64,000 nt of DNA from Escherichia phage vB_EcoM_G2540-3, in the sequence record MK327944.1. One strand, 5' to 3'. Made by a program: the position numbers and the translations under genes. The notes beneath the pieces are model-generated. The model was not told the DNA's origin. It worked only from the letters and a program-made list of their open reading frames with translations, and ran no database searches. Shown here in pieces: positions 5,153 through 60,583 of the stretch. Within the stretch, counting starts at the first letter, position 1, and the number at the start of each line of letters is the position of its first letter.

Positions 5153-5566
5153 TTATTCCTTAAAGTGAGCTTTCAACATCTGATACAAGGACCATGCCTG
5201 TTCATCATTTTCAATAGTAACTTTCATTACAGGGAATTTAGATTGATCAGTTATCGGTGCAGATTCTTCCTGCTCTTCAGCTGCCTGGTATGGATTTTCA
5301 ACTTCATTAAAGAATTCAGCTTCATTCGATGAAAGCCAAATAAAATCTTCATCCAAAATATCTTTACCAGAAGATAGTACTAAATTTCCAGCAAATGACA
5401 TAATTTTAATAGGACGCCCAAGAGCATCCACATCTAAAATTTTAAAAGGATGCATACCTAAACGGCGTGCATAGATTCCGTTATCAGTATGGTCTTTAAT
5501 AAAATTTTCTTGAGCTTGTTTATTTTTAAACTGATACCATTTATTAACTTCAAATTTAATAGCCAT
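5153..5566 (-). CDS. hypothetical early protein, 137 aa (occupies the T4 goF position by synteny)
   Basis: ORF only; the synteny-based name is a guess. Confidence 0.5.
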
Positions 5567-15165: not shown

Positions 15166-15173
15166 TATTTATA
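15166..15173 (-). promoter_or_regulatory. late promoter (soc)
   Basis: Minus strand TATAAATA about 30 nt before the soc ATG. Confidence 0.7.
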
Positions 15174-16020
15174 AACCATTTTCAAACCTCTTTATCATAT
15201 TTATATAGTTTTCATCGGGATAACCTAGACTAACTGCTAACTTTCTAAAATTGACATATTTAGGTTTGTTGTTATTAATCCATAATTCTCTAAGCTCTTT
15301 TTCATAATTCCATTTAAGTTGATTTCTGCGTGCAGTTTTGCTTAAAGTTTTTCCTTTAGCTTTTAAAGCCTTTTCGGATGACTGTTTTAATTTTTGAATA
15401 TTTAAAACTTCTTCTATAGATAAATTATTTTCCTTTGAATACCTTATGCAAAAATCTTTTACTACGGCTATTAGGCAATTTTTGTGAGTACCTAAAATTT
15501 CTGGATTATTTTCTTCAACTAAAATTCCCCAATATCTTCGGTAGCGAGGCATATCCCTTGAAATCCAGTCATTATACCAAAAATCAAAGTTGGAATACAT
15601 GAAAGATTTTCTTTTGCGAAGAGTATCTTGGTTTATCCATTGCTCACGTTTATCAGCCCATAACTTAATAGTAAAGTCTTTCTCTAAGTCAGAAAGCTTC
15701 TTAAATTGCGAGCTATTTACTGAGGTCATTCTCTGGAATGCATTCAGCAGTCCAAATCTTCCAGTTGAACATAAGAGATAGTGAACATATATGTGTTGAT
15801 ATATTGGGAGATATACTCTATTCCAAGGATATATTTTAAAATCACTATACTCAGGAAATGCGCATTTAGGAAGTATATGATGGGCTTCTGTTTTAGATTT
15901 AATGTTAGTGTTTAACTTATACTTATCTATAATTTTTAAGTACTCATCTAAAAGTTCCCATTGCGGGAACTTTTCTTTAAGAGCAGATTTGAAATTAATA
16001 TCCATTATCTTGACGTTCAA
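15169..16020 (-). CDS. HNH (Mob-type) homing endonuclease, 283 aa
   Basis: EAHHILPK...H motif; C-terminal LRELWINNNKPKYVNFRKLAVSLGYP module shared with four paralogues in the window. Confidence 0.75.
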   Translation of the reverse strand: MNVKIMDINFKSALKEKFPQWELLDEYLKIIDKYKLNTNIKSKTEAHHILPKCAFPEYSDFKIYPWNRVYLPIYQHIYVHYLLCSTGRFGLLNAFQRMTSVNSSQFKKLSDLEKDFTIKLWADKREQWINQDTLRKRKSFMYSNFDFWYNDWISRDMPRYRRYWGILVEENNPEILGTHKNCLIAVVKDFCIRYSKENNLSIEEVLNIQKLKQSSEKALKAKGKTLSKTARRNQLKWNYEKELRELWINNNKPKYVNFRKLAVSLGYPDENYINMIKRFENGL

Positions 16021-16513
16021 AATTATGTTTGTTCTTCAGATAATAAAGTTTAAAGATTTCTTCAGCAGTAAGACCAAGACCTTGGAACATATTCAGAACG
16101 AAATGGAGAATATCAATCATTTCAAATTTAATTTCCAACTGGTCTTGCGGAGACAAATCAGTAATCAGAGTTTCACGACGTTCACCATGCTGCGACTTCC
16201 AAGGTTTCCATACAGCAGATGCATCTTTTTCACCATTACTCATACCACCGAGAGAAGTCAGAAGTTCACGGAATTCATCGTCAATATAATCTTTCTGATT
16301 ACGCAACCAATCAACAACTTCACCGGCAGTAGCCAAGTCATCAGGATGACGATTATATTCAGGTTTATCTTTAGCTAAACGAATCTGCAGAGATTTCTGC
16401 ATGTCAAGCATAACCTGCAGCGGGTCTTTTTCATCACCGAGAATATCCCAATATTCATTTTGAGCTTTATCAGCGCCTTCGATCAGTTGACTACATTCGT
16501 TGAAATGTGGCAT
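15995..16513 (-). CDS. 56: dCTP pyrophosphatase gp56 (MazG-like), 172 aa
   Basis: Size and all-alpha MazG-like sequence; position between soc and gene 61. Confidence 0.8.
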   Translation of the reverse strand: MPHFNECSQLIEGADKAQNEYWDILGDEKDPLQVMLDMQKSLQIRLAKDKPEYNRHPDDLATAGEVVDWLRNQKDYIDDEFRELLTSLGGMSNGEKDASAVWKPWKSQHGERRETLITDLSPQDQLEIKFEMIDILHFVLNMFQGLGLTAEEIFKLYYLKNKHNFERQDNGY

Positions 16514-16514
16514 G

Positions 16515-17165
16515 TTATTTTTCCTTTCTTATGAAGTTTTCTATCATATGTCTATAGCAGATATTAGGATAACCTGCCTTGACAGCTATTTTATTAAATT
16601 TTGTGCGCTTAGGTCTATTATTATAAACCCATAATTCATAAAGCGCATCATAACTATTCCATATTTCTCCTCGCCTAGGATTTGGTAAACCATATCGAGG
16701 CGAATTTTTACCGCTAAATCTTCCTTTTCGGGCTTTACTCATATTAGCCTTGGCTTCATCGGATATAATTTTACCTTTATGAGCTAGACGCATTTTGGCT
16801 TTAGTTTCTTCTGGAGTCTTTTTACCTTTAATCCATGACGGCTTGCCATATCTAGGATTATTTTCACCCGAGAAAAGAACAGAGTTTTGGATTTTAAGGG
16901 TTTCTATTAATCTACTTGTTAATTTAACACCTTTATTATATCGCATTAAATTTACAGCATAATGCAATCCTCTCACATCTGGATATATTTTAGTTAATAA
17001 TCTATGAGCTATAAAATGCTCACGCGCAGTTAACTCAACAAGATTGTTTTTGCCATCTGCTCCTCCCATACATCTAGGAATTATATGATGGCGTTCTTTA
17101 TATCCGCCAAGATGCCGGCATTTAGCTTTTGTAATTAAAGCCGAGTAAATTTTTTGGTAATTCAC
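16515..17165 (-). CDS. HNH (Mob-type) homing endonuclease, 216 aa
   Basis: HHIIPRCMGG...NLVELTAREHFIAH motif; MotA-box middle promoter upstream. Confidence 0.8.
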   Translation of the reverse strand: MNYQKIYSALITKAKCRHLGGYKERHHIIPRCMGGADGKNNLVELTAREHFIAHRLLTKIYPDVRGLHYAVNLMRYNKGVKLTSRLIETLKIQNSVLFSGENNPRYGKPSWIKGKKTPEETKAKMRLAHKGKIISDEAKANMSKARKGRFSGKNSPRYGLPNPRRGEIWNSYDALYELWVYNNRPKRTKFNKIAVKAGYPNICYRHMIENFIRKEK

Positions 17166-17235: not shown

Positions 17236-17436
17236 ATGGTACAAAAATTAATGGCACTTGTTAATGCCATAAAAGGTAATAAAAAACGTATAGCTTTTAC
17301 TATTTCTGCTATGATAGGAATTTTACTTTGGAATTTTGTTTTATCGCCAGTTGCTATTGCACATGGCGTTAGTATTCCAGTAATTACTCTTGATACATTC
17401 GTAGATTTAGCATTTGCTTTAGTTGGGTTAATTTAA
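17236..17436 (+). CDS. small hydrophobic protein with two predicted transmembrane helices, 66 aa, on the plus strand
   Basis: Perfect SD AAGGAGG 4 nt before ATG; two hydrophobic segments; convergent with gene 61. Confidence 0.5.
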   Translation: MVQKLMALVNAIKGNKKRIAFTISAMIGILLWNFVLSPVAIAHGVSIPVITLDTFVDLAFALVGLI

Positions 17437-18461
17437 ATCTTAGCATATTTAGATAACCGCATTTTAGCCATCAACCCCTGGGCGATATTATTTTTCATAT
17501 ATTCCATAATTTGTTCAGGGGTTGCACCTTCCTTTCTAATCATATCATTAACATCTTTTGATTTCCAGGGAGATTTATCCCAAAACATAACCCTTTCTCC
17601 TGCATCAACTAATTTAGTCATTCGTTTGATAGTGTCAGGATGACGAGGTTCATTATCTAAAACCCACACACGTCTATCTTTAAATGGAACAATTTCTAGG
17701 TCTAATTGACCGCCCGTAATAGCTATACCATTTTCAATAAAAAGTGAATCTATAGGTCCTTCTAGAACATATACATCGCCATCTTTAACTCGTTCAACAC
17801 CATAGATTTTTGTTGCCTCAGGATAAGCTTTGATGGTGATATATTTTTGAGGAGCATCTTTCTTTAATGCACGTCCTTGAAAAGACTCAGCTTTTCCATT
17901 AGCATTATAAATTGGAATAACAAGACGAGGCTCAGGTATTTCCTTTTTATATGTTCCTGGTGCTATACTATTAACTAATTTAGGCCATTCGGTTGTAAAC
18001 CAAAGATATTTCCATTTATCCTTTGGAATACAACGAGCTTTTACGTATTTTATAATTGGATGGTCTTCCGTCAGTTTATCTAATCTAATGCATGACGGAA
18101 GAGATTTAATTATTTTCTTCTCAGGTTGTTTAGGAAGTTCTTTAGGTTTTTCTACTGGACGACTTTTACCTTTTTCTTTTCTTATTTCAAAGATATACTC
18201 ACGATATAAATCAGGTTCAAACTCCTTTAAATATATTCCGATTGGTGCATGATAGTTACAGTTATAACAATGAATATTTCCTTCATTATTATCACCGTAA
18301 TACCATCCACGGGCTTTATTTTGGTCGGTTTTTGAATCTCCACAAACAGGGCATCTAAACCGTAATTTAAAAGTTGAACTATTATTTACTTGTGTGAATT
18401 TAGGTAAATGAGCTAGCGCACGATATGCAAACTCATTATCAATCCAAGGTATTGATGACAT
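17433..18461 (-). CDS. 61: DNA primase gp61, 342 aa
   Basis: Zinc ribbon CPVCGDS...CYNCNYH plus TOPRIM region; 342 aa as in T4. Confidence 0.9.
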   Translation of the reverse strand: MSSIPWIDNEFAYRALAHLPKFTQVNNSSTFKLRFRCPVCGDSKTDQNKARGWYYGDNNEGNIHCYNCNYHAPIGIYLKEFEPDLYREYIFEIRKEKGKSRPVEKPKELPKQPEKKIIKSLPSCIRLDKLTEDHPIIKYVKARCIPKDKWKYLWFTTEWPKLVNSIAPGTYKKEIPEPRLVIPIYNANGKAESFQGRALKKDAPQKYITIKAYPEATKIYGVERVKDGDVYVLEGPIDSLFIENGIAITGGQLDLEIVPFKDRRVWVLDNEPRHPDTIKRMTKLVDAGERVMFWDKSPWKSKDVNDMIRKEGATPEQIMEYMKNNIAQGLMAKMRLSKYAKI

Positions 18462-18627
18462 TTTTACTCTTCTTTTTCTTTAGATTCCTCTTTTTCTTTT
18501 TAGGAATCTGTTCAGGACCTTTATTTACTACAGCGCCTGACGTTGTTCCAGTAGAGATATTTTCAGGATTACCACCTGAATCTCCAGCTACCATATCTTC
18601 TTTGATAAATTCTTTATATGTTTTCAT
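18439..18627 (-). CDS. hypothetical basic small protein, 62 aa (61.1 position)
   Basis: ORF with RBS AGAGG; lysine-rich C-terminus. Confidence 0.45.
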   Translation of the reverse strand: MKTYKEFIKEDMVAGDSGGNPENISTGTTSGAVVNKGPEQIPKKKKRNLKKKKSKNVINTLD

Positions 18628-18650
18628 ATTAACCTCTATTCATAAAAGCA

Positions 18651-19256
18651 TTAAAAATTTGGGTCATCAATAGAAACTTTTACTTTAAACTGTTTTTCTG
18701 ATGGTAATTCATATCCGCATATTACAATTTTGTGATCAATATCAAAATACACAGAAGCAATATGATTAATGATGTTTTCAGTAAAGTCTAAATCAACCTC
18801 AATATCTTTTTGACCACAACCCAAAGGATAAATAATGCGAGTAATTCGATTATCTTTAACAAAGATTCCACCAATATACTCTGTGCTGCGTTTAAAGTCT
18901 ACGCGCCGCCGAAATGAAAAATATTCAGGCTCTTTATGAGCTCGGCTCATAGGACACAACGAATAACTAGAATAAGAGATGTCAAATCCTACACCTTCAA
19001 TATGAACTAAATTGTCATGATTAAACCAATTATAATCGTACGCCAAGTCCATTAGATTATAATATGTAAAAGGCACCGGATTAACATCACTAGTCACAAG
19101 CACGTAATTAGCAACTGCTATAATTTCGTTGTTTTTAACGAATACAAACCGCGATTGATGCGAATGACCTGGACCTGCGTTTTCACGATTAATGATATAA
19201 CACTGGGCACCTTTATATTTGTACGTGTCTTTGCACTTGTGCATTTGATAAAGCAT
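18651..19256 (-). CDS. hypothetical protein, 201 aa (61.2 position)
   Basis: ORF only; identity not verifiable from sequence. Confidence 0.5.
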   Translation of the reverse strand: MLYQMHKCKDTYKYKGAQCYIINRENAGPGHSHQSRFVFVKNNEIIAVANYVLVTSDVNPVPFTYYNLMDLAYDYNWFNHDNLVHIEGVGFDISYSSYSLCPMSRAHKEPEYFSFRRRVDFKRSTEYIGGIFVKDNRITRIIYPLGCGQKDIEVDLDFTENIINHIASVYFDIDHKIVICGYELPSEKQFKVKVSIDDPNF

Positions 19257-19549
19257 TATTCACCTACCACTTCAGCGATGATATTTTTATTATTGAAGTT
19301 TTTATCGCAATACAGAACGTAATTATACTGCATTACACCACCAGACTTAAGCTGTTTTTGCACTTCAGCTTTCATTTCAGGACGATCACGCTCAACGATA
19401 TTCATAATATCTGCTTCAATCTGAGTTTCAACCTCAGTCTGATCTGCAGTCATAGACCATTCGCACAAATCTTTATCATAACCTGCCATAGCAGGCTGAG
19501 CAGCGCAAGAAGCTAAAGCAAAAATTGCAGCAAAAACAAATTTTTTCAT
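19256..19549 (-). CDS. sp: periplasmic protein, 97 aa, likely Spackle (Sp)
   Basis: Signal peptide MKKFVFAAIFALASCAAQPAMA; 97 aa; position between 61 and 41; RBS GGAG; early promoter at 19578..19607. Confidence 0.55.
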   Translation of the reverse strand: MKKFVFAAIFALASCAAQPAMAGYDKDLCEWSMTADQTEVETQIEADIMNIVERDRPEMKAEVQKQLKSGGVMQYNYVLYCDKNFNNKNIIAEVVGE

Positions 19550-19577
19550 GATAATCTCCTCAGTAGTTTATGTTTAT

Positions 19578-19607
19578 ATAGTATCTCAATTTCTAACAAA
19601 AGTAAAC
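19578..19607 (-). promoter_or_regulatory. T4-type early promoter (before the sp-like gene)
   Basis: Minus strand GTTTAC, 18 nt, TACTAT. Confidence 0.6.
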
Positions 19608-19861
19608 TATTTTATTTCCTCAAGTTCGTTAATCAATAAAAGTTCTCTGACGCTAAAAACAAAGAAAAATGTGTTCCCATCAACCAGAGCATGACCGCTA
19701 ATAGAACACCCTCTGCGGAATTTAGAAACTTCACAATCTAGAACTGTAAAGGGTTTTAATCCTATGACTTTAGCTGTGCGTCTATTCAGTTCACAACCAC
19801 TTGCGAATTTTTCCAAATCTTCTTCTGATTTAAACTGATATTCTCTATTAACTAGCATCAT
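19607..19861 (-). CDS. hypothetical protein, 84 aa
   Basis: ORF with RBS GGAG and early promoter at 19893..19922. Confidence 0.5.
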   Translation of the reverse strand: MMLVNREYQFKSEEDLEKFASGCELNRRTAKVIGLKPFTVLDCEVSKFRRGCSISGHALVDGNTFFFVFSVRELLLINELEEIK

Positions 19862-19892
19862 TTTCTTTTCTCCGCGATTAGCTGATAGAATT

Positions 19893-19922
19893 ACTATAAC
19901 ACAACTCTATCAGCTTGTAAAC
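19893..19922 (-). promoter_or_regulatory. T4-type early promoter with -10 inside a 9-bp inverted repeat
   Basis: Minus strand GTTTAC, 18 nt, TATAGT; arms GCTGATAGA and TCTATCAGC. Confidence 0.6.
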
Positions 19923-19924
19923 TA

Positions 19925-20167
19925 CTATTTTACTAGCATCAATAACTGTTTCTCTAACTTGACGATTTTACGAAAGTATCTTTTGCATTGGCGAATCTGT
20001 CGCTTCGTAGGGCGCACAGCAAACTTAATAAATTCCACTCGACCAAATGGAGGACTTTCTTCTGCTGGAATATCTAACACCAATTCCCACGTATCCGCAA
20101 TAAGTGCCTTGAATTGAGTATTTTTCCTGACATTATACGGAGTAGGTTTAAATAAAACAATATGCAT
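19925..20167 (-). CDS. hypothetical protein, about 80 aa
   Basis: Start set at ATG 20167 just after the upstream stop. Confidence 0.45.
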   Translation of the reverse strand: MHIVLFKPTPYNVRKNTQFKALIADTWELVLDIPAEESPPFGRVEFIKFAVRPTKRQIRQCKRYFRKIVKLEKQLLMLVK

Positions 20168-20168
20168 A

Positions 20169-20351
20169 TTATCCTCGGCAATCCACTTCACATACTTTCT
20201 TGTCATCAATGAAAGCTTTAACTAGCGCTTTATTAACTTCAGCATATTGAGTAGTAGCCCATTGAACGTCATCTTTCATCATTGTGATTTCTTTAGTAAA
20301 CATGCTTTCATTCTTAAACCACCCCATAAAAACTACCTTTACCAATTCCAT
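20169..20351 (-). CDS. dmd: Dmd-like antitoxin (discriminator of mRNA degradation), 60 aa
   Basis: 60-aa ORF in the 61.5 position with RBS GAGGAG and its own early promoter. Confidence 0.55.
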   Translation of the reverse strand: MELVKVVFMGWFKNESMFTKEITMMKDDVQWATTQYAEVNKALVKAFIDDKKVCEVDCRG

Positions 20352-20380
20352 AAAAATCTCCTCATTTAACCAACAAGACT

Positions 20381-20410
20381 ACTATACCATAGTCTTGTCA
20401 GCTTGTAAAC
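20381..20410 (-). promoter_or_regulatory. T4-type early promoter (dmd) with -10 inside an 8-bp inverted repeat
   Basis: Minus strand GTTTAC, 18 nt, TATAGT; arms CAAGACTA and TAGTCTTG. Confidence 0.6.
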
Positions 20411-21837
20411 TAAAATTTTAATTCATTCGCCAAAGCATCTAACTGGGCTCGAGTAGATTCATTTCTTTGATAGCGATTCTGCTCAGCTTGTATCTGTTGT
20501 GAACCTGCTACTTCGTTCACTTCAGTTGGAGTAGAATCTTGCTCAATTTCTACCCATTTCTGATTTCCTTTTTGAACACCCATCAAAAACTTATTCCATT
20601 TATTCTTATCACCATATCGTGATTTGATTTGCTTAATTAGTTGTTGTTCAGCAGCTGCTAACTCCTCGGTTTCAATGACCGCAAGCATAAAATCGGCTGT
20701 TGCTGGAAGACCGGCAGATTCTGCAATATCGCTCATGTTAACATCAGAAGAATCCCAAGCTTGTTTACCAACCTGTGCTGCGGTCCAAAGAACAGTTTCG
20801 GTTTCAACAGCCAGAGCACGTAATTCTTCTGCGATAGCTTTAACAGTTGTGTAACTATTTTCTGAATAAACTCTGATGCGGCAAGATTTACAAATACCCA
20901 GATAGTCAACAATAATGATTGTTGGAACAAAATTCTTCTTGAGCTTTAATTCATTTAAAAGCGACCGAAATGTATTAGCGTCTGCTCCACCAGTAGGATA
21001 CTGTTTAACGATTAAACGGCCGAGAGTAGATTTCTCACGCCATTTTTCCATTTTTCCTTTATATTCAGCGTAAGAAATATGCCCATCATCAATGTCATCA
21101 AGAGAAACATCGAGCATATTAGCGTCAATACGTTTAGCACAGACTTCTTCTGCCATTTCCATGGAAATGTAAAGAACATTATGTCCGAGCTGCAAATAAT
21201 CTGCTGCCAATGAACACAGACCTAATGACTTACCAACGTTAACACCAGCCATTAAAACGTTCAGTGTTCCAGTTTCAGCTCCGCCTTTAGTAATTTTATT
21301 TAGAATTTTGAGTCTAAATGGAACCTTACGAGCTTTATTCATATAAGATAGCCAACGTGCTTCATAGTCATCCATCCAATCATGACCAACGTAACTATCA
21401 AATGAAATTGATAATGCTTGACGCATGATGTCAGGAATAGCACCTACATCTGGCATTTTCTTATTTCGTTTTTCCGGAGGAAGCTCAGCATTAGTTTGGA
21501 TTTCAATTATTTTAGACGTAGCATTAAACATCGCCCTTTGCTGAACATATTTTTCTGTTTCTTTTACTAACCAGCTGTGGTCTTCTGGAGAATCGGTTAG
21601 TTTCGAAATAAGTGTTTTTACGCCAGAATATTCCGTTTCAGTAAATGAACTATTTTCTAATGCAACATTTAACGCATTAATAGATGGAACGCTATGATAC
21701 TCATTAACATGAGATTTAATTAATTTGAATGTATTTTTAGCTGGACCACTTTCAAAATATTCTGAATCCATATATGGCCAAACTTTTGAAAAATAAGCTT
21801 GATCAAATATGAGATGAGAAAGAATAATTTCTACCAC
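20410..21837 (-). CDS. 41: replicative DnaB-like helicase gp41, 475 aa
   Basis: Walker A GVNVGKS, 475 aa, position between 61 and uvsX. Confidence 0.9.
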   Translation of the reverse strand: MVEIILSHLIFDQAYFSKVWPYMDSEYFESGPAKNTFKLIKSHVNEYHSVPSINALNVALENSSFTETEYSGVKTLISKLTDSPEDHSWLVKETEKYVQQRAMFNATSKIIEIQTNAELPPEKRNKKMPDVGAIPDIMRQALSISFDSYVGHDWMDDYEARWLSYMNKARKVPFRLKILNKITKGGAETGTLNVLMAGVNVGKSLGLCSLAADYLQLGHNVLYISMEMAEEVCAKRIDANMLDVSLDDIDDGHISYAEYKGKMEKWREKSTLGRLIVKQYPTGGADANTFRSLLNELKLKKNFVPTIIIVDYLGICKSCRIRVYSENSYTTVKAIAEELRALAVETETVLWTAAQVGKQAWDSSDVNMSDIAESAGLPATADFMLAVIETEELAAAEQQLIKQIKSRYGDKNKWNKFLMGVQKGNQKWVEIEQDSTPTEVNEVAGSQQIQAEQNRYQRNESTRAQLDALANELKF

Positions 21838-60553: not shown

Positions 60554-60583
60554 ATTATACCACAGTCAAGAGGAAAAGTAAAC
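60554..60583 (-). promoter_or_regulatory. T4-type early promoter (regB)
   Basis: Minus strand GTTTAC, 18 nt, TGGTATAAT. Confidence 0.65.

What the first reader, a model, noticed from the sequence alone, without database searches (positions are those of the whole stretch)
18439..20351. Cluster of six small genes between 61 and 41, each with its own promoter, including Dmd-like and Sp-like genes
This interval carries three independent early promoters and six small genes (62, 201, 97, 84, about 80 and 60 aa). By position they correspond to the T4 61.1-61.5 set, which includes the Dmd antitoxin and Spackle, and possibly the 61.2 gene that has been linked to DarT escape. The individual sequences are diverged enough that I cannot confirm the functions.
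Basis: partly seen in the sequence, partly recalled or inferred. Interest (0 to 1): 0.4.

Follow-up and report, generated by a model that had tools for sequence, protein, structure and literature searches.

The report
T4 anti-toxin island plus goF-like cassette
This is the well-studied cluster of small early genes between the primase and helicase genes of a T4-type phage (Dmd, TifA, Spackle, AdfA, 61.1), nearly identical to T4, plus one extra small gene already seen in about 70 sequenced relatives, so it is ordinary.

Summary
Six minus-strand ORFs of 62, 201, 97, 84, 80 and 60 aa lie between gene 61 and gene 41. Three T4-type early promoters lie there too, where about 0.2 are expected by chance in the whole 64 kb window. 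The title is wrong on one point: six genes share three promoters (dmd-tifA | ORF84 | sp-adfA-61.1).

The sequences are not diverged. Dmd is 100% identical to T4, Spackle 97%, gp61.4 97%, gp61.1 95% and gp61.2 94.5%. The DNA is 99.6% identical to phage vB_EcoM-G28. gp61.4 is TifA, the known ToxN inhibitor, and gp61.2 is AdfA, the anti-DarT factor (His allele). With Dmd they form the published "anti-TA island".

The 84-aa gene has no T4 counterpart at this site. It is a stand-alone copy of the N-terminal SH3/LSm-like domain of GoF and is under strong purifying selection. It arrives with its own promoter-plus-hairpin (PeSL-type) element, and its right edge falls exactly at the -35 box of the next promoter. 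It occupies different slots of the same island in other phage lineages. Its function is unknown, and the RefSeq label "goF mRNA metabolism modulator" is transferred, not tested.

Verdict: already known, low interest. The one open lead is ORF84 as a candidate counter-defence or RNA-binding factor.

The parts
20381..20410 (-). Early promoter of the dmd-tifA operon (GTTTACA, 17-nt spacer, TG-extended TATAGT). The transcription start is inferred near 20374.
   Evidence: It matches the aligned T4 promoter and hairpin stretch except for one base in the hairpin 3' arm, a G-U to G-C change. T4 dmd-tifA is documented as driven by an early promoter upstream of dmd (PMC9391042).
20368..20403 (-). 15-bp hairpin that spans the promoter spacer, the -10 box and the +1 region of the dmd promoter (PeSL-type stem-loop).
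   Evidence: Fold -21.3 kcal/mol, z = -4.7, 0 of 200 shuffles fold as well. The pairing is kept across related promoters, with compensatory changes.
20169..20351 (-). dmd: antitoxin Dmd, the direct inhibitor of the RnlA and LsoA endoribonuclease toxins (60 aa).
   Evidence: 100% identical to T4 Dmd. Pfam PF17587, E = 1.6e-46. Matches PDB 5HY3 chain B, 'Antitoxin Dmd'.
19925..20167 (-). tifA (formerly 61.4): ToxN inhibitor, 80 aa. The C-terminal tail differs from T4 (LLMLVK in place of FVTCDYAEILK).
   Evidence: 97% identical to T4 gp61.4 over 76 aa. Pfam DUF7279, E = 2e-20. Renamed TifA in PMC9391042. The 3' end diverges from T4 after window position 19944.
19893..19922 (-). Early promoter of ORF84 (GTTTACA, 17-nt spacer, TG-extended TATAGT). 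It forms a 64-nt direct repeat (70% identity) with the dmd promoter region.
   Evidence: repeat family D1.
19880..19915 (-). 14-bp hairpin overlapping the -10 box of the ORF84 promoter (PeSL-type stem-loop).
   Evidence: Inverted repeat I22. Fold -21 kcal/mol, z = -3.2. 8 of 14 pairs show compensatory changes across 7 related elements.
19607..19861 (-). ORF84: a stand-alone paralogue of the GoF N-terminal (SH3/LSm-like) domain. Absent from T4 at this site; function untested.
   Evidence: No T4 match at this locus. PHROG 2980, E = 3e-20. hhalign against T4 GoF residues 6-48 gives 96.7% probability. dN/dS is 0.05-0.16. AF2 model pLDDT 87.8; fold hits include T4 MotB.1 and a 141-aa PP01 protein of GoF's length.
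19608..19943 (-). Segment that replaces 36 bp of T4 sequence: the variant tifA 3' end, the PeSL promoter and ORF84. Its right edge abuts the -35 GTTTAC of the sp promoter.
   Evidence: Alignments with T4 and GEP001.
19578..19607 (-). Early promoter of the sp-adfA-61.1 unit (GTTTACT, 17-nt spacer, TACTAT). It has no hairpin.
   Evidence: One base different from T4. Fold not different from shuffles, z = 0.14.
19256..19549 (-). sp: Spackle, a periplasmic inhibitor of the gp5 tail lysozyme of superinfecting phage (97 aa, with an N-terminal signal peptide).
   Evidence: 96.9% identical to T4 Sp. Pfam PF25676, E = 4.8e-45. Matches PDB 6X6O and 7CN6; the mature chain corresponds to residues 23-97.
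18651..19256 (-). adfA (formerly 61.2): anti-DarT factor A, 201 aa. It is the His allele (IINHIAS). The C-terminal 7 residues are lost to a +1C frameshift relative to T4.
   Evidence: Pfam PF23813, E = 1.1e-126. 94.5% identical to T4. Alignment with T4 and RB69. Frameshift shown.
18439..18627 (-). 61.1: small protein of unknown function, 62 aa. Loss of one A in an A-run changes the C-terminus, and the ORF overlaps the start of gene 61 by 23 nt.
   Evidence: 95% identical to T4 gp61.1 over residues 1-42. PHROG 1823, E = 3.8e-32. Frameshift shown.

Best explanation
The interval is the accessory island between the primase gene (61) and the helicase gene (41) of a Tequatrovirus. It is transcribed immediately after infection from three sigma-70-type early promoters, as three units.

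Unit 1, dmd-tifA, encodes two small proteins that bind and neutralise host RNase toxins: Dmd acts on RnlA and LsoA, and TifA acts on ToxN.

Unit 2 is ORF84 alone. It is an 84-aa stand-alone copy of the SH3/LSm-like N-terminal domain of GoF.

Unit 3, sp-adfA-61.1, encodes three proteins. Spackle is exported to the periplasm and blocks the gp5 lysozyme of superinfecting phages. AdfA binds the DarT1 ADP-ribosyltransferase toxin. gp61.1 has no known function.

Five of the genes are orthologues of T4 genes at 94.5-100% identity, so their mechanisms are taken from the published T4 work, not shown here. ORF84 is an insertion relative to T4. It arrived with, or was lost from T4 with, its own composite promoter/stem-loop (PeSL) element, through recombination at the -35 box of the neighbouring promoter.

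My inference for ORF84: it is an early cytoplasmic beta-barrel protein that binds either RNA or a host nuclease or toxin, and so modulates mRNA fate or host defence.
For: Identity of the region:
- 99.6% DNA identity to phage vB_EcoM-G28, and 646 phage records match.
- Protein identities to T4 range from 94.5% to 100%.
- Pfam Dmd, T4_Spackle, AdfA and DUF7279 hits all lie far above their cut-offs.
- Dmd and Spackle match PDB entries.
- 61.4 is TifA, and the 'anti-TA island' is proposed in PMC9391042.
- AdfA and its His/Arg allele are described in PMC11257639. The window carries the His allele.

Promoters: 3 of the window's 17 strict matches fall here, against 0.2 expected in the whole window.

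ORF84:
- It is absent from T4 and present in 83 phage records.
- It is homologous to the GoF N-terminal domain, and the fold search agrees.
- dN/dS is 0.05-0.16.

Cassette behaviour:
- The junction sits at the -35 GTTTAC.
- The same tifA|sp slot holds nothing in T4, ORF84 here, ORF84 plus a 59-aa ORF in GEP001, and imm plus imm.1 in RB69.
- The goF-like gene sits in other slots in SP18 and in metagenomic T4-like contigs.
- The hairpins fold well and covary.
- 8 of 24 early-promoter-like sites in the window carry strong hairpins, against 1.3% of background windows.
Against: - None of the protein functions was tested here. They are inferred from orthology.
- AdfA lacks the otherwise invariant C-terminal tail and TifA has a different C-terminal tail, so their activities may differ from those of T4.
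- Deleting T4 adfA gave no DarTG1 phenotype (PMC11257639).
- Wild-type GoF itself has no demonstrated function (PMC12152347), so the family gives little mechanistic guidance for ORF84.
- The hairpins lack a U-tract (one search finds no intrinsic terminators). Their terminator role is therefore inferred from work on RB49/phi1 PeSLs.
Confidence: 0.9

Rival explanations
1. ORF84 is a true GoF orthologue, the 'mRNA metabolism modulator' named in RefSeq and PHROG annotation, and does the same job as T4 goF.
For: The best PHROG match is phrog_2980, labelled 'goF mRNA metabolism modulator' (E = 3e-20). The N-terminal 41-43 residues are 35-37% identical to T4 GoF.
Against: - T4 GoF itself belongs to phrog_622 and matches phrog_2980 only at E = 5.5e-06.
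- The window already has a real goF orthologue at 5156-5566, 77% identical to T4.
- ORF84 lacks the GoF acidic linker and C-terminal domain.
- It carries invariant C23, C43, C52 and H57, which GoF lacks.
- A profile search of 1.84 billion representative proteins does not reach GoF at E <= 0.001.
Confidence: 0.1
2. ORF84 is a new counter-defence (anti-toxin) protein of the anti-TA island, functionally analogous to Dmd or TifA. It would bind and inhibit a host toxin or nuclease rather than acting on phage mRNA.
For: - In every lineage examined it stays inside the 41-61 island next to dmd, tifA and adfA.
- In metagenomic T4-like contigs that lack dmd, it sits immediately upstream of tifA, or of a 50-aa ORF followed by tifA. 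That is where dmd sits in T4.
- It has its own strong early promoter.
- Presence varies among close relatives, about 11% of records, as is typical of host-range accessory genes.
- The authors of PMC9391042 call the other genes of the region attractive anti-toxin candidates.
Confidence: 0.25
3. ORF84 is a chance ORF or a decaying remnant inside an intergenic insertion, not a gene.
For: It is short, has no Pfam family, and its family is tiny: six 90% clusters, one of them a 54-aa truncated form, among 5.8 billion proteins.
Against: - dN/dS is 0.05-0.16 against homologues at 77-81% amino-acid identity.
- 37 residues are invariant down to a 56%-identical homologue.
- It has a GGAG ribosome-binding site and a dedicated consensus early promoter.
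- The predicted fold is confident and matches a phage protein family.
Confidence: 0.02

Closest known systems
Phage T4 genes 61.1, 61.2 (adfA), sp, 61.4 (tifA) and dmd: the 'anti-TA island' of Srikant, Guegler and Laub 2022 (PMC9391042)
   Same: Same position between genes 61 and 41, same order and strand. Products are 94.5-100% identical to T4. The dmd and sp promoters are the same.
   Different: There is one extra gene, ORF84, with its own promoter between tifA and sp. The TifA C-terminal tail is different and 5 aa shorter. One-base frameshifts change the C-termini of AdfA (201 instead of 208 aa) and gp61.1 (62 instead of 54 aa).
Escherichia phage vB_EcoM-G28 (NC_054916) and about 70 other Tequatrovirus genomes that carry the same six-gene arrangement (RB3, RB6, RB9, Shfl2, PP01, ime09 and others)
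   Same: 99.6% DNA identity over the whole interval. G28 has the same six genes and both frameshift alleles.
   Different: The flanking region around gene 56 (two HNH endonuclease-like genes, no dam) is not like G28. It is 98% identical to Yersinia phages fPS-2 and PYPS2T, so the genome is a mosaic.
T4 GoF / MotB.1 / Frd.2 family of LSm-like-fold early proteins (Kim et al. 2025, PMC12152347)
   Same: ORF84 aligns along its whole length with the GoF N-terminal domain. Its AF2 model hits T4 MotB.1 and a 141-aa PP01 protein of GoF's length in BFVD. In the PDB it hits the SH3-like FeoA and IdeR neighbours reported for GoF.
   Different: It has no linker or C-terminal domain. It has invariant Cys23, Cys43, Cys52 and His57 that GoF lacks. 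It is encoded in the 41-61 island rather than next to gene 39. The true goF is present elsewhere in the window.
PeSL (promoter-early stem-loop) cassettes of T4-type phages (Arbiol et al. 2010, PMC2839356; Comeau et al. 2014, PMC4122927)
   Same: A strong sigma-70-like early promoter with an AT-rich upstream stretch. A stable stem-loop overlaps the -10 box, which is one of the published positions. A Shine-Dalgarno sequence and start codon of a small variable ORF follow. The indel junction lies inside the element.
   Different: The -10 box is TATAGT rather than the published TAYWAT. The downstream flank, the sp promoter, has no stem-loop, making it a 'half' PeSL. Terminator activity and mini-circle formation were not tested.

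Membership tests
Dmd antitoxin (Pfam PF17587) | Sequence membership: a protein of about 60 aa matching the Dmd profile and T4 Dmd | tested here: met
   100% identical to T4 Dmd over 60 aa. PF17587 at 156.9 bits against a cut-off of 27. Matches PDB 5HY3_B.
Dmd antitoxin (Pfam PF17587) | First gene downstream of gene 41, behind an early promoter, co-operonic with tifA | tested here: met
   Promoter at 20381-20410. dmd at 20169-20351. The tifA start codon at 20167 follows two bases after the dmd stop.
Dmd antitoxin (Pfam PF17587) | Neutralises the RnlA and LsoA toxins | not testable with these tools
   Inferred from sequence identity to the T4 protein.
TifA (gp61.4, DUF7279) | Sequence membership, with the central cluster of positively charged residues | tested here: met
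   97% identical to T4 over 76 aa. PF23945 at 72.8 bits against a cut-off of 24.5. The motif RPTKRQIRQCKRYFRK is present, and PMC9391042 describes this architecture.
TifA (gp61.4, DUF7279) | [quoted passage not shown] | tested here: not met
   The last residues are LLMLVK in place of FVTCDYAEILK, giving 80 instead of 85 aa. RB69 TifA also lacks the extension and is still active, so this is a variant and not grounds for exclusion.
AdfA (gp61.2, Pfam PF23813) | Sequence membership | tested here: met
   PF23813 at 420.7 bits against a cut-off of 27. 94.5% identical to T4.
AdfA (gp61.2, Pfam PF23813) | His at the position equivalent to RB69 R164, the DarT1-binding allele | tested here: met
   The window and T4 read IINHIAS; RB69 reads NINRIAS. 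The significance of the allele comes from PMC11257639.
AdfA (gp61.2, Pfam PF23813) | The conserved C-terminal tail IDDQIFNAFMN(R/K)G | tested here: not met
   A +1C frameshift gives ...IDDPNF*. The tail is invariant in T4, RB69, Shfl2 and GEP001 AdfA and in shorter paralogue-like ORFs.
Spackle (Pfam PF25676) | Sequence membership, with an N-terminal signal peptide and a mature chain of about 75 aa | tested here: met
   PF25676 at 152.5 bits. 96.9% identical to T4. The PDB 7CN6 chain aligns to residues 23-97. The hydrophobic leader MKKFVFAAIFALASCAAQPAMA can be read directly.
GoF (T4 goF / comC-alpha orthologue) | Full-length protein of about 141 aa: N-terminal domain, acidic linker and C-terminal domain | tested here: not met
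   ORF84 is 84 aa and aligns only with the N-terminal domain. The orthologue lies at 5156-5566. T4 GoF's own family is phrog_622, not phrog_2980.
GoF/MotB.1/Frd.2 LSm-like-fold family (domain level) | Five-stranded SH3/LSm-like beta-barrel homologous to the GoF N-terminal domain | tested here: met
PeSL (promoter-early stem-loop) cassette | A sigma-70-like early promoter with a stable stem-loop in or next to it, in the intergenic space before a small ORF | tested here: met
   The dmd and ORF84 promoters qualify. The sp promoter has no stem-loop.
PeSL (promoter-early stem-loop) cassette | Associated with indels or replacements between close relatives, with junctions in the element | tested here: met
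   Homology with T4 resumes exactly at the GTTTAC of the sp promoter. In GEP001 three successive cassettes each start at GTTTAC.
PeSL (promoter-early stem-loop) cassette | The stem-loop terminates or attenuates upstream transcription, and mini-circles form by PeSL-PeSL recombination | not testable with these tools
   No U-tract follows the hairpins, and the scan found no intrinsic terminator. These functions were shown only for RB49/phi1 elements.

The most novel reading that the evidence does not exclude
ORF84 is an uncharacterised counter-defence or RNA-fate factor. It is a minimal SH3/LSm-like GoF-type domain with a conserved Cys3-His set. It moves among slots of the T-even anti-TA island on a promoter/stem-loop cassette. 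In some phages it takes the place of dmd upstream of tifA. It would then be a fourth anti-toxin-type gene of the island, with a target not yet known.
Probability: 0.25. Interest if true: 0.5.

Novelty: already known. Interest (0 to 1): 0.15.

Why it matters
As it stands, this is a textbook region of a T4-type phage, and the exact arrangement is already in GenBank, so it adds little.

Three practical points follow:
1. The RefSeq and PHROG label "goF mRNA metabolism modulator" on the 84-aa gene is a transferred name for a distant, domain-only paralogue. It should not be read as a function.
2. This phage carries variant C-termini of TifA, AdfA and gp61.1. These could change which host ToxN and DarT variants it can overcome.
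3. The locus is a clean natural example of promoter-bounded cassette exchange in an anti-defence island. ORF84 is the obvious untested candidate in it.

Tried and rejected
- Rfam scan of 17400-21000 at E <= 1: one sub-threshold chance hit (greA leader, 24.7 bits against a gathering score of 60). No known RNA family.
- PADLOC scan of all six proteins: nothing.
- Word-indexed searches for ORF84 homologues and a full profile search of 1.84 billion representatives. They found five full-length 90% clusters plus one 54-aa truncated form. The other profile hits were long multi-stretch proteins. The two whose sequences I read (P0007, P0012) are C2H2 zinc-finger repeat proteins that match the 'KPFKxLxCE' stretch, and I rejected all of them as spurious.
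- First AF2 model of ORF84, from a 4-sequence alignment: pLDDT 62, not used. Adding the window's own GoF to the alignment gave a usable model.
Left as an open remark.
- PDB sequence search for TifA and AdfA: no solved relatives.
- IMG/VR scans for the two frameshift alleles: no hits for either. A control scan found the T4 adfA allele 5 times. This does not decide whether the frameshifts are real or homopolymer sequencing errors, though G28 shares both.
- Intrinsic terminators in the interval: none found.
- The idea that the tifA 3' end (TTGATGCTAGTAAAATAG) is a remnant of a deleted ORF84 copy (compare ATGATGCTAGT...AAATAG): suggestive, but a 9-mer match in 2 kb is expected by chance, so it is not claimed.


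Full report
**What is there.** The window is a T4-type (Tequatrovirus) phage genome. Positions 18400-20420 are 99.6% identical to Escherichia phage vB_EcoM-G28, and 646 phage records match at least part of the interval. All genes run on the minus strand:

| Gene | Coordinates | Length |
|---|---|---|
| gene 61 (primase) | 17433-18461 | 342 aa |
| 61.1 | 18439-18627 | 62 aa |
| adfA (61.2) | 18651-19256 | 201 aa |
| sp | 19256-19549 | 97 aa |
| ORF84 | 19607-19861 | 84 aa |
| tifA (61.4) | 19925-20167 | 80 aa |
| dmd | 20169-20351 | 60 aa |
| gene 41 (helicase) | 20410-21837 | 475 aa |

**Promoters.** The strict T4 early-promoter pattern GTTTACW-N16-18-TAYWRT occurs 17 times in the 64 kb. All 17 are on the minus strand, against 0.20 expected from shuffles. 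Three fall in the interval:
- 20381-20410, before dmd.
- 19893-19922, before ORF84.
- 19578-19607, before sp.

The first two are also the best generic sigma-70 matches, at 10 of 12 with an extended -10 TG. The third differs from the T4 sequence at one base. The genes tifA, adfA and 61.1 begin at or within a few bases of the preceding stop codon and have no promoter of their own. The units are therefore dmd-tifA | ORF84 | sp-adfA-61.1, which probably continues into gene 61. "Three early promoters" is confirmed. "Each with its own promoter" is not.

**Identity of five genes.** T4 annotates five genes between 61 and 41: 61.1, 61.2, sp, 61.4 and dmd.

| Window gene | Identity to the T4 product | Family evidence |
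|---|---|---|
| dmd | 100% | Pfam Dmd, E = 1.6e-46 |
| sp | 96.9% | Pfam T4_Spackle, E = 4.8e-45 |
| tifA (61.4) | 97.4% over 76 aa | Pfam DUF7279, E = 2e-20 |
| 61.1 | 95.2% over 42 aa | no Pfam family |
| adfA (61.2) | 94.5% | Pfam AdfA, E = 1.1e-126 |

Dmd and Spackle also match solved structures, 5HY3 and 6X6O/7CN6.

- 61.4 is tifA, a protein inhibitor of the ToxN endoribonuclease. It is co-transcribed with dmd from the early promoter upstream of dmd. The authors call the region a possible "anti-TA island" (PMC9391042).
- 61.2 is adfA, whose His allele binds DarT1 (PMC11257639). The window has the His form IINHIAS, as in T4; RB69 has Arg.

The mechanisms are therefore inferred from orthology, not shown here. 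Dmd and TifA bind and block RNase toxins. AdfA binds an ADP-ribosyltransferase toxin. Spackle is exported and inhibits the gp5 lysozyme of superinfecting phage. gp61.1 has no known function.

**The sixth gene.** ORF84 has no T4 counterpart at this site.
- A tblastn search finds it in 83 phage records. Seventy are at 95% identity or more, all of them E. coli, Shigella or Salmonella T-even phages. Thirteen are below 60% (57% in those listed) and include the Gaprivervirus SP18.
- Two searches of 5.8 billion proteins and one profile search of 1.84 billion representatives find only five full-length 90% clusters.
- It is a real gene. dN/dS is 0.05-0.16 against homologues of 77-81% identity. Thirty-seven residues are invariant down to a 56%-identical homologue. 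It has a GGAG ribosome-binding site and a consensus promoter.

RefSeq calls it "goF mRNA metabolism modulator". That label comes from phrog_2980. T4 GoF itself belongs to phrog_622 and hits phrog_2980 only weakly, and the window has a true goF orthologue at 5156-5566. The relationship is nevertheless real at domain level:
- hhalign gives 96.7% probability for ORF84 residues 3-45 against GoF residues 6-48.
- ORF84 aligns end to end with the GoF N-terminal domain.
- An AF2 model has pLDDT 87.8, though only two of the five models were confident. It shows five strands with a two-helix insert.
- The model hits T4 MotB.1 and a 141-aa PP01 protein of GoF's length in BFVD.

ORF84 lacks the GoF linker and C-terminal domain. 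It has invariant C23, C43, C52 and H57, which GoF lacks. Wild-type GoF has no demonstrated activity, so the family name says little about mechanism.

**How ORF84 got there.**
- Against T4, homology breaks in the last codons of tifA, after window position 19944. It resumes exactly at the -35 GTTTAC of the sp promoter. Together, 336 bp replace 36 bp.
- Phage GEP001 shows the clean form. After the T4-type tifA stop codon come three successive units, each starting at GTTTAC: ORF84, a 59-aa ORF, and sp.
- The same tifA|sp slot is empty in T4 and holds imm plus imm.1 in RB69.
- The goF-like gene sits directly after gene 41 in SP18.
- In metagenomic T4-like contigs that have no dmd, it lies upstream of tifA: directly in one contig, and with a 50-aa ORF in between in two others.
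- The ORF84 promoter region is a 64-nt direct repeat (70% identity) of the dmd promoter region.
- Both promoters carry a 14-15-bp hairpin that runs from the spacer across the -10 box to about +1 (z = -3.2 and -4.7).
- Across seven related elements, 8 of 14 pairs show compensatory changes.
- Window-wide, 8 of 24 early-promoter-like sites have such hairpins (MFE of -15 kcal/mol or lower), against 1.3% of background windows.

This matches the published PeSL (promoter-early stem-loop) cassettes, whose stem-loops commonly overlap the -10 box and whose sequences act as recombination points for small variable ORFs (PMC2839356; PMC4122927). The terminator role is inferred. No U-tract follows the hairpins, and no intrinsic terminator was found.

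**Variant alleles.** Two one-base changes relative to T4 and Shfl2 are shared with G28.
- An extra C near the end of adfA gives 201 instead of 208 aa. It removes the tail IDDQIFNAFMNRG. That tail is invariant in T4, RB69, Shfl2 and GEP001 AdfA. It is also shared by shorter paralogue-like ORFs of the island.
- A missing A in an A-run of 61.1 gives 62 instead of 54 aa and a 23-nt overlap with gene 61.

Neither allele occurs in IMG/VR, where a control scan found the T4 adfA allele 5 times. They may be real or may be homopolymer sequencing errors.

**Verdict.** The cluster is an already known and experimentally characterised T4 island, and this exact six-gene version is already deposited many times.

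- There are three transcription units, not six.
- The products are near-identical to T4, not diverged.
- The gene of about 80 aa is TifA.
- The 84-aa gene is not a T4 61.x gene. It is a cassette-borne paralogue of the GoF N-terminal domain.

The only open question of some interest is what ORF84 does. I put about 25% on a counter-defence (anti-toxin-like) role. The basis is its persistent residence in the island and its occupying the dmd position in some phages.

Noticed in passing
window 18651-18680 and 18439-18500 (minus strand): Two one-base homopolymer frameshifts relative to T4 and Shfl2, both shared with phage G28. An extra C truncates AdfA and removes its conserved IDDQIFNAFMNRG tail. 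A missing A extends gp61.1 into gene 61. Neither allele is in IMG/VR; a control scan found the T4 adfA allele 5 times.
   Followed up: partly
L007 531-1515; L008 531-1521; L006 4074-4875; L011 4984-5418: The tail IDDQIFNAFMN(R/K)G* and an N-terminal 'VVKDNxI'-type motif are shared by AdfA and by shorter ORFs of 118-146 aa next to it in Shfl2, GEP001, SP18 and a metagenomic phage. AdfA seems to belong to a small paralogue family. The shared 3' module flanks the 118-aa indel, so it may serve as a recombination junction.
   Followed up: partly
window 19925-19945 compared with 19849-19861: The variant tifA 3' end (TTG ATG CTA GTA AAA TAG, reading LMLVK*) resembles the start plus stop of ORF84 (ATG ATG CTA GT...AAA TAG, reading MMLV...K*). 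It may be the scar of an internally deleted ORF84 copy. The 9-mer match alone is within chance.
   Followed up: partly
window, minus strand, promoters starting at 60583, 51494, 7626, 56377 and 14855, compared with 55566, 20410, 19922 and 6519: Early-promoter hairpins fall into two classes. In the first, the promoter spacer carries an anti-Shine-Dalgarno stretch that pairs with the ribosome-binding site of the downstream gene. Read-through transcripts would then have a masked site, and locally initiated ones a free site. In the second, the hairpin ends before the ribosome-binding site.
   Followed up: partly
window 15169-17165: Gene 56 (15995-16513) is flanked by two homing-endonuclease-like ORFs that look paralogous (similar C-termini). 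The 216-aa ORF hits the NUMOD3 motif; the 283-aa ORF has no Pfam match, but close relatives annotate it as an HNH endonuclease. There is no dam gene, unlike T4 and G28. This arrangement is 98% identical to Yersinia phages fPS-2 and PYPS2T, and only 7 records cover 80% or more of it. The genome is therefore a mosaic.
   Followed up: partly
window 17236-17436 (plus strand): A 66-aa hydrophobic ORF lies on the opposite strand just downstream of gene 61. It is annotated as a hypothetical protein in G28, P8 and RB3 and sits at the same place in RB69 (ORF029w). It has no Pfam family.
   Followed up: no
window 5156-5566 (minus strand): The true goF orthologue, 77% identical to T4 GoF. The phage therefore carries both a full-length GoF and the domain-only ORF84.
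   Followed up: yes
L010 3179-3940; L011 3179-3940: In metagenomic T4-like contigs, a 253-aa ORF lies between gene 41 and the goF-like gene. It has a weak, sub-threshold similarity to a GIY-YIG domain, so it may be a seg-type homing endonuclease. These contigs have no dmd.
   Followed up: partly
phage records PV390659.2 (P8) and others: Database annotations in this locus are unreliable. In P8, gp61.1 is labelled 'major capsid domain-containing protein' and TifA is labelled 'DNA polymerase'. ORF84 is labelled goF, ComC-alpha or 'RNA metabolism moderator' in several records.
   Followed up: no
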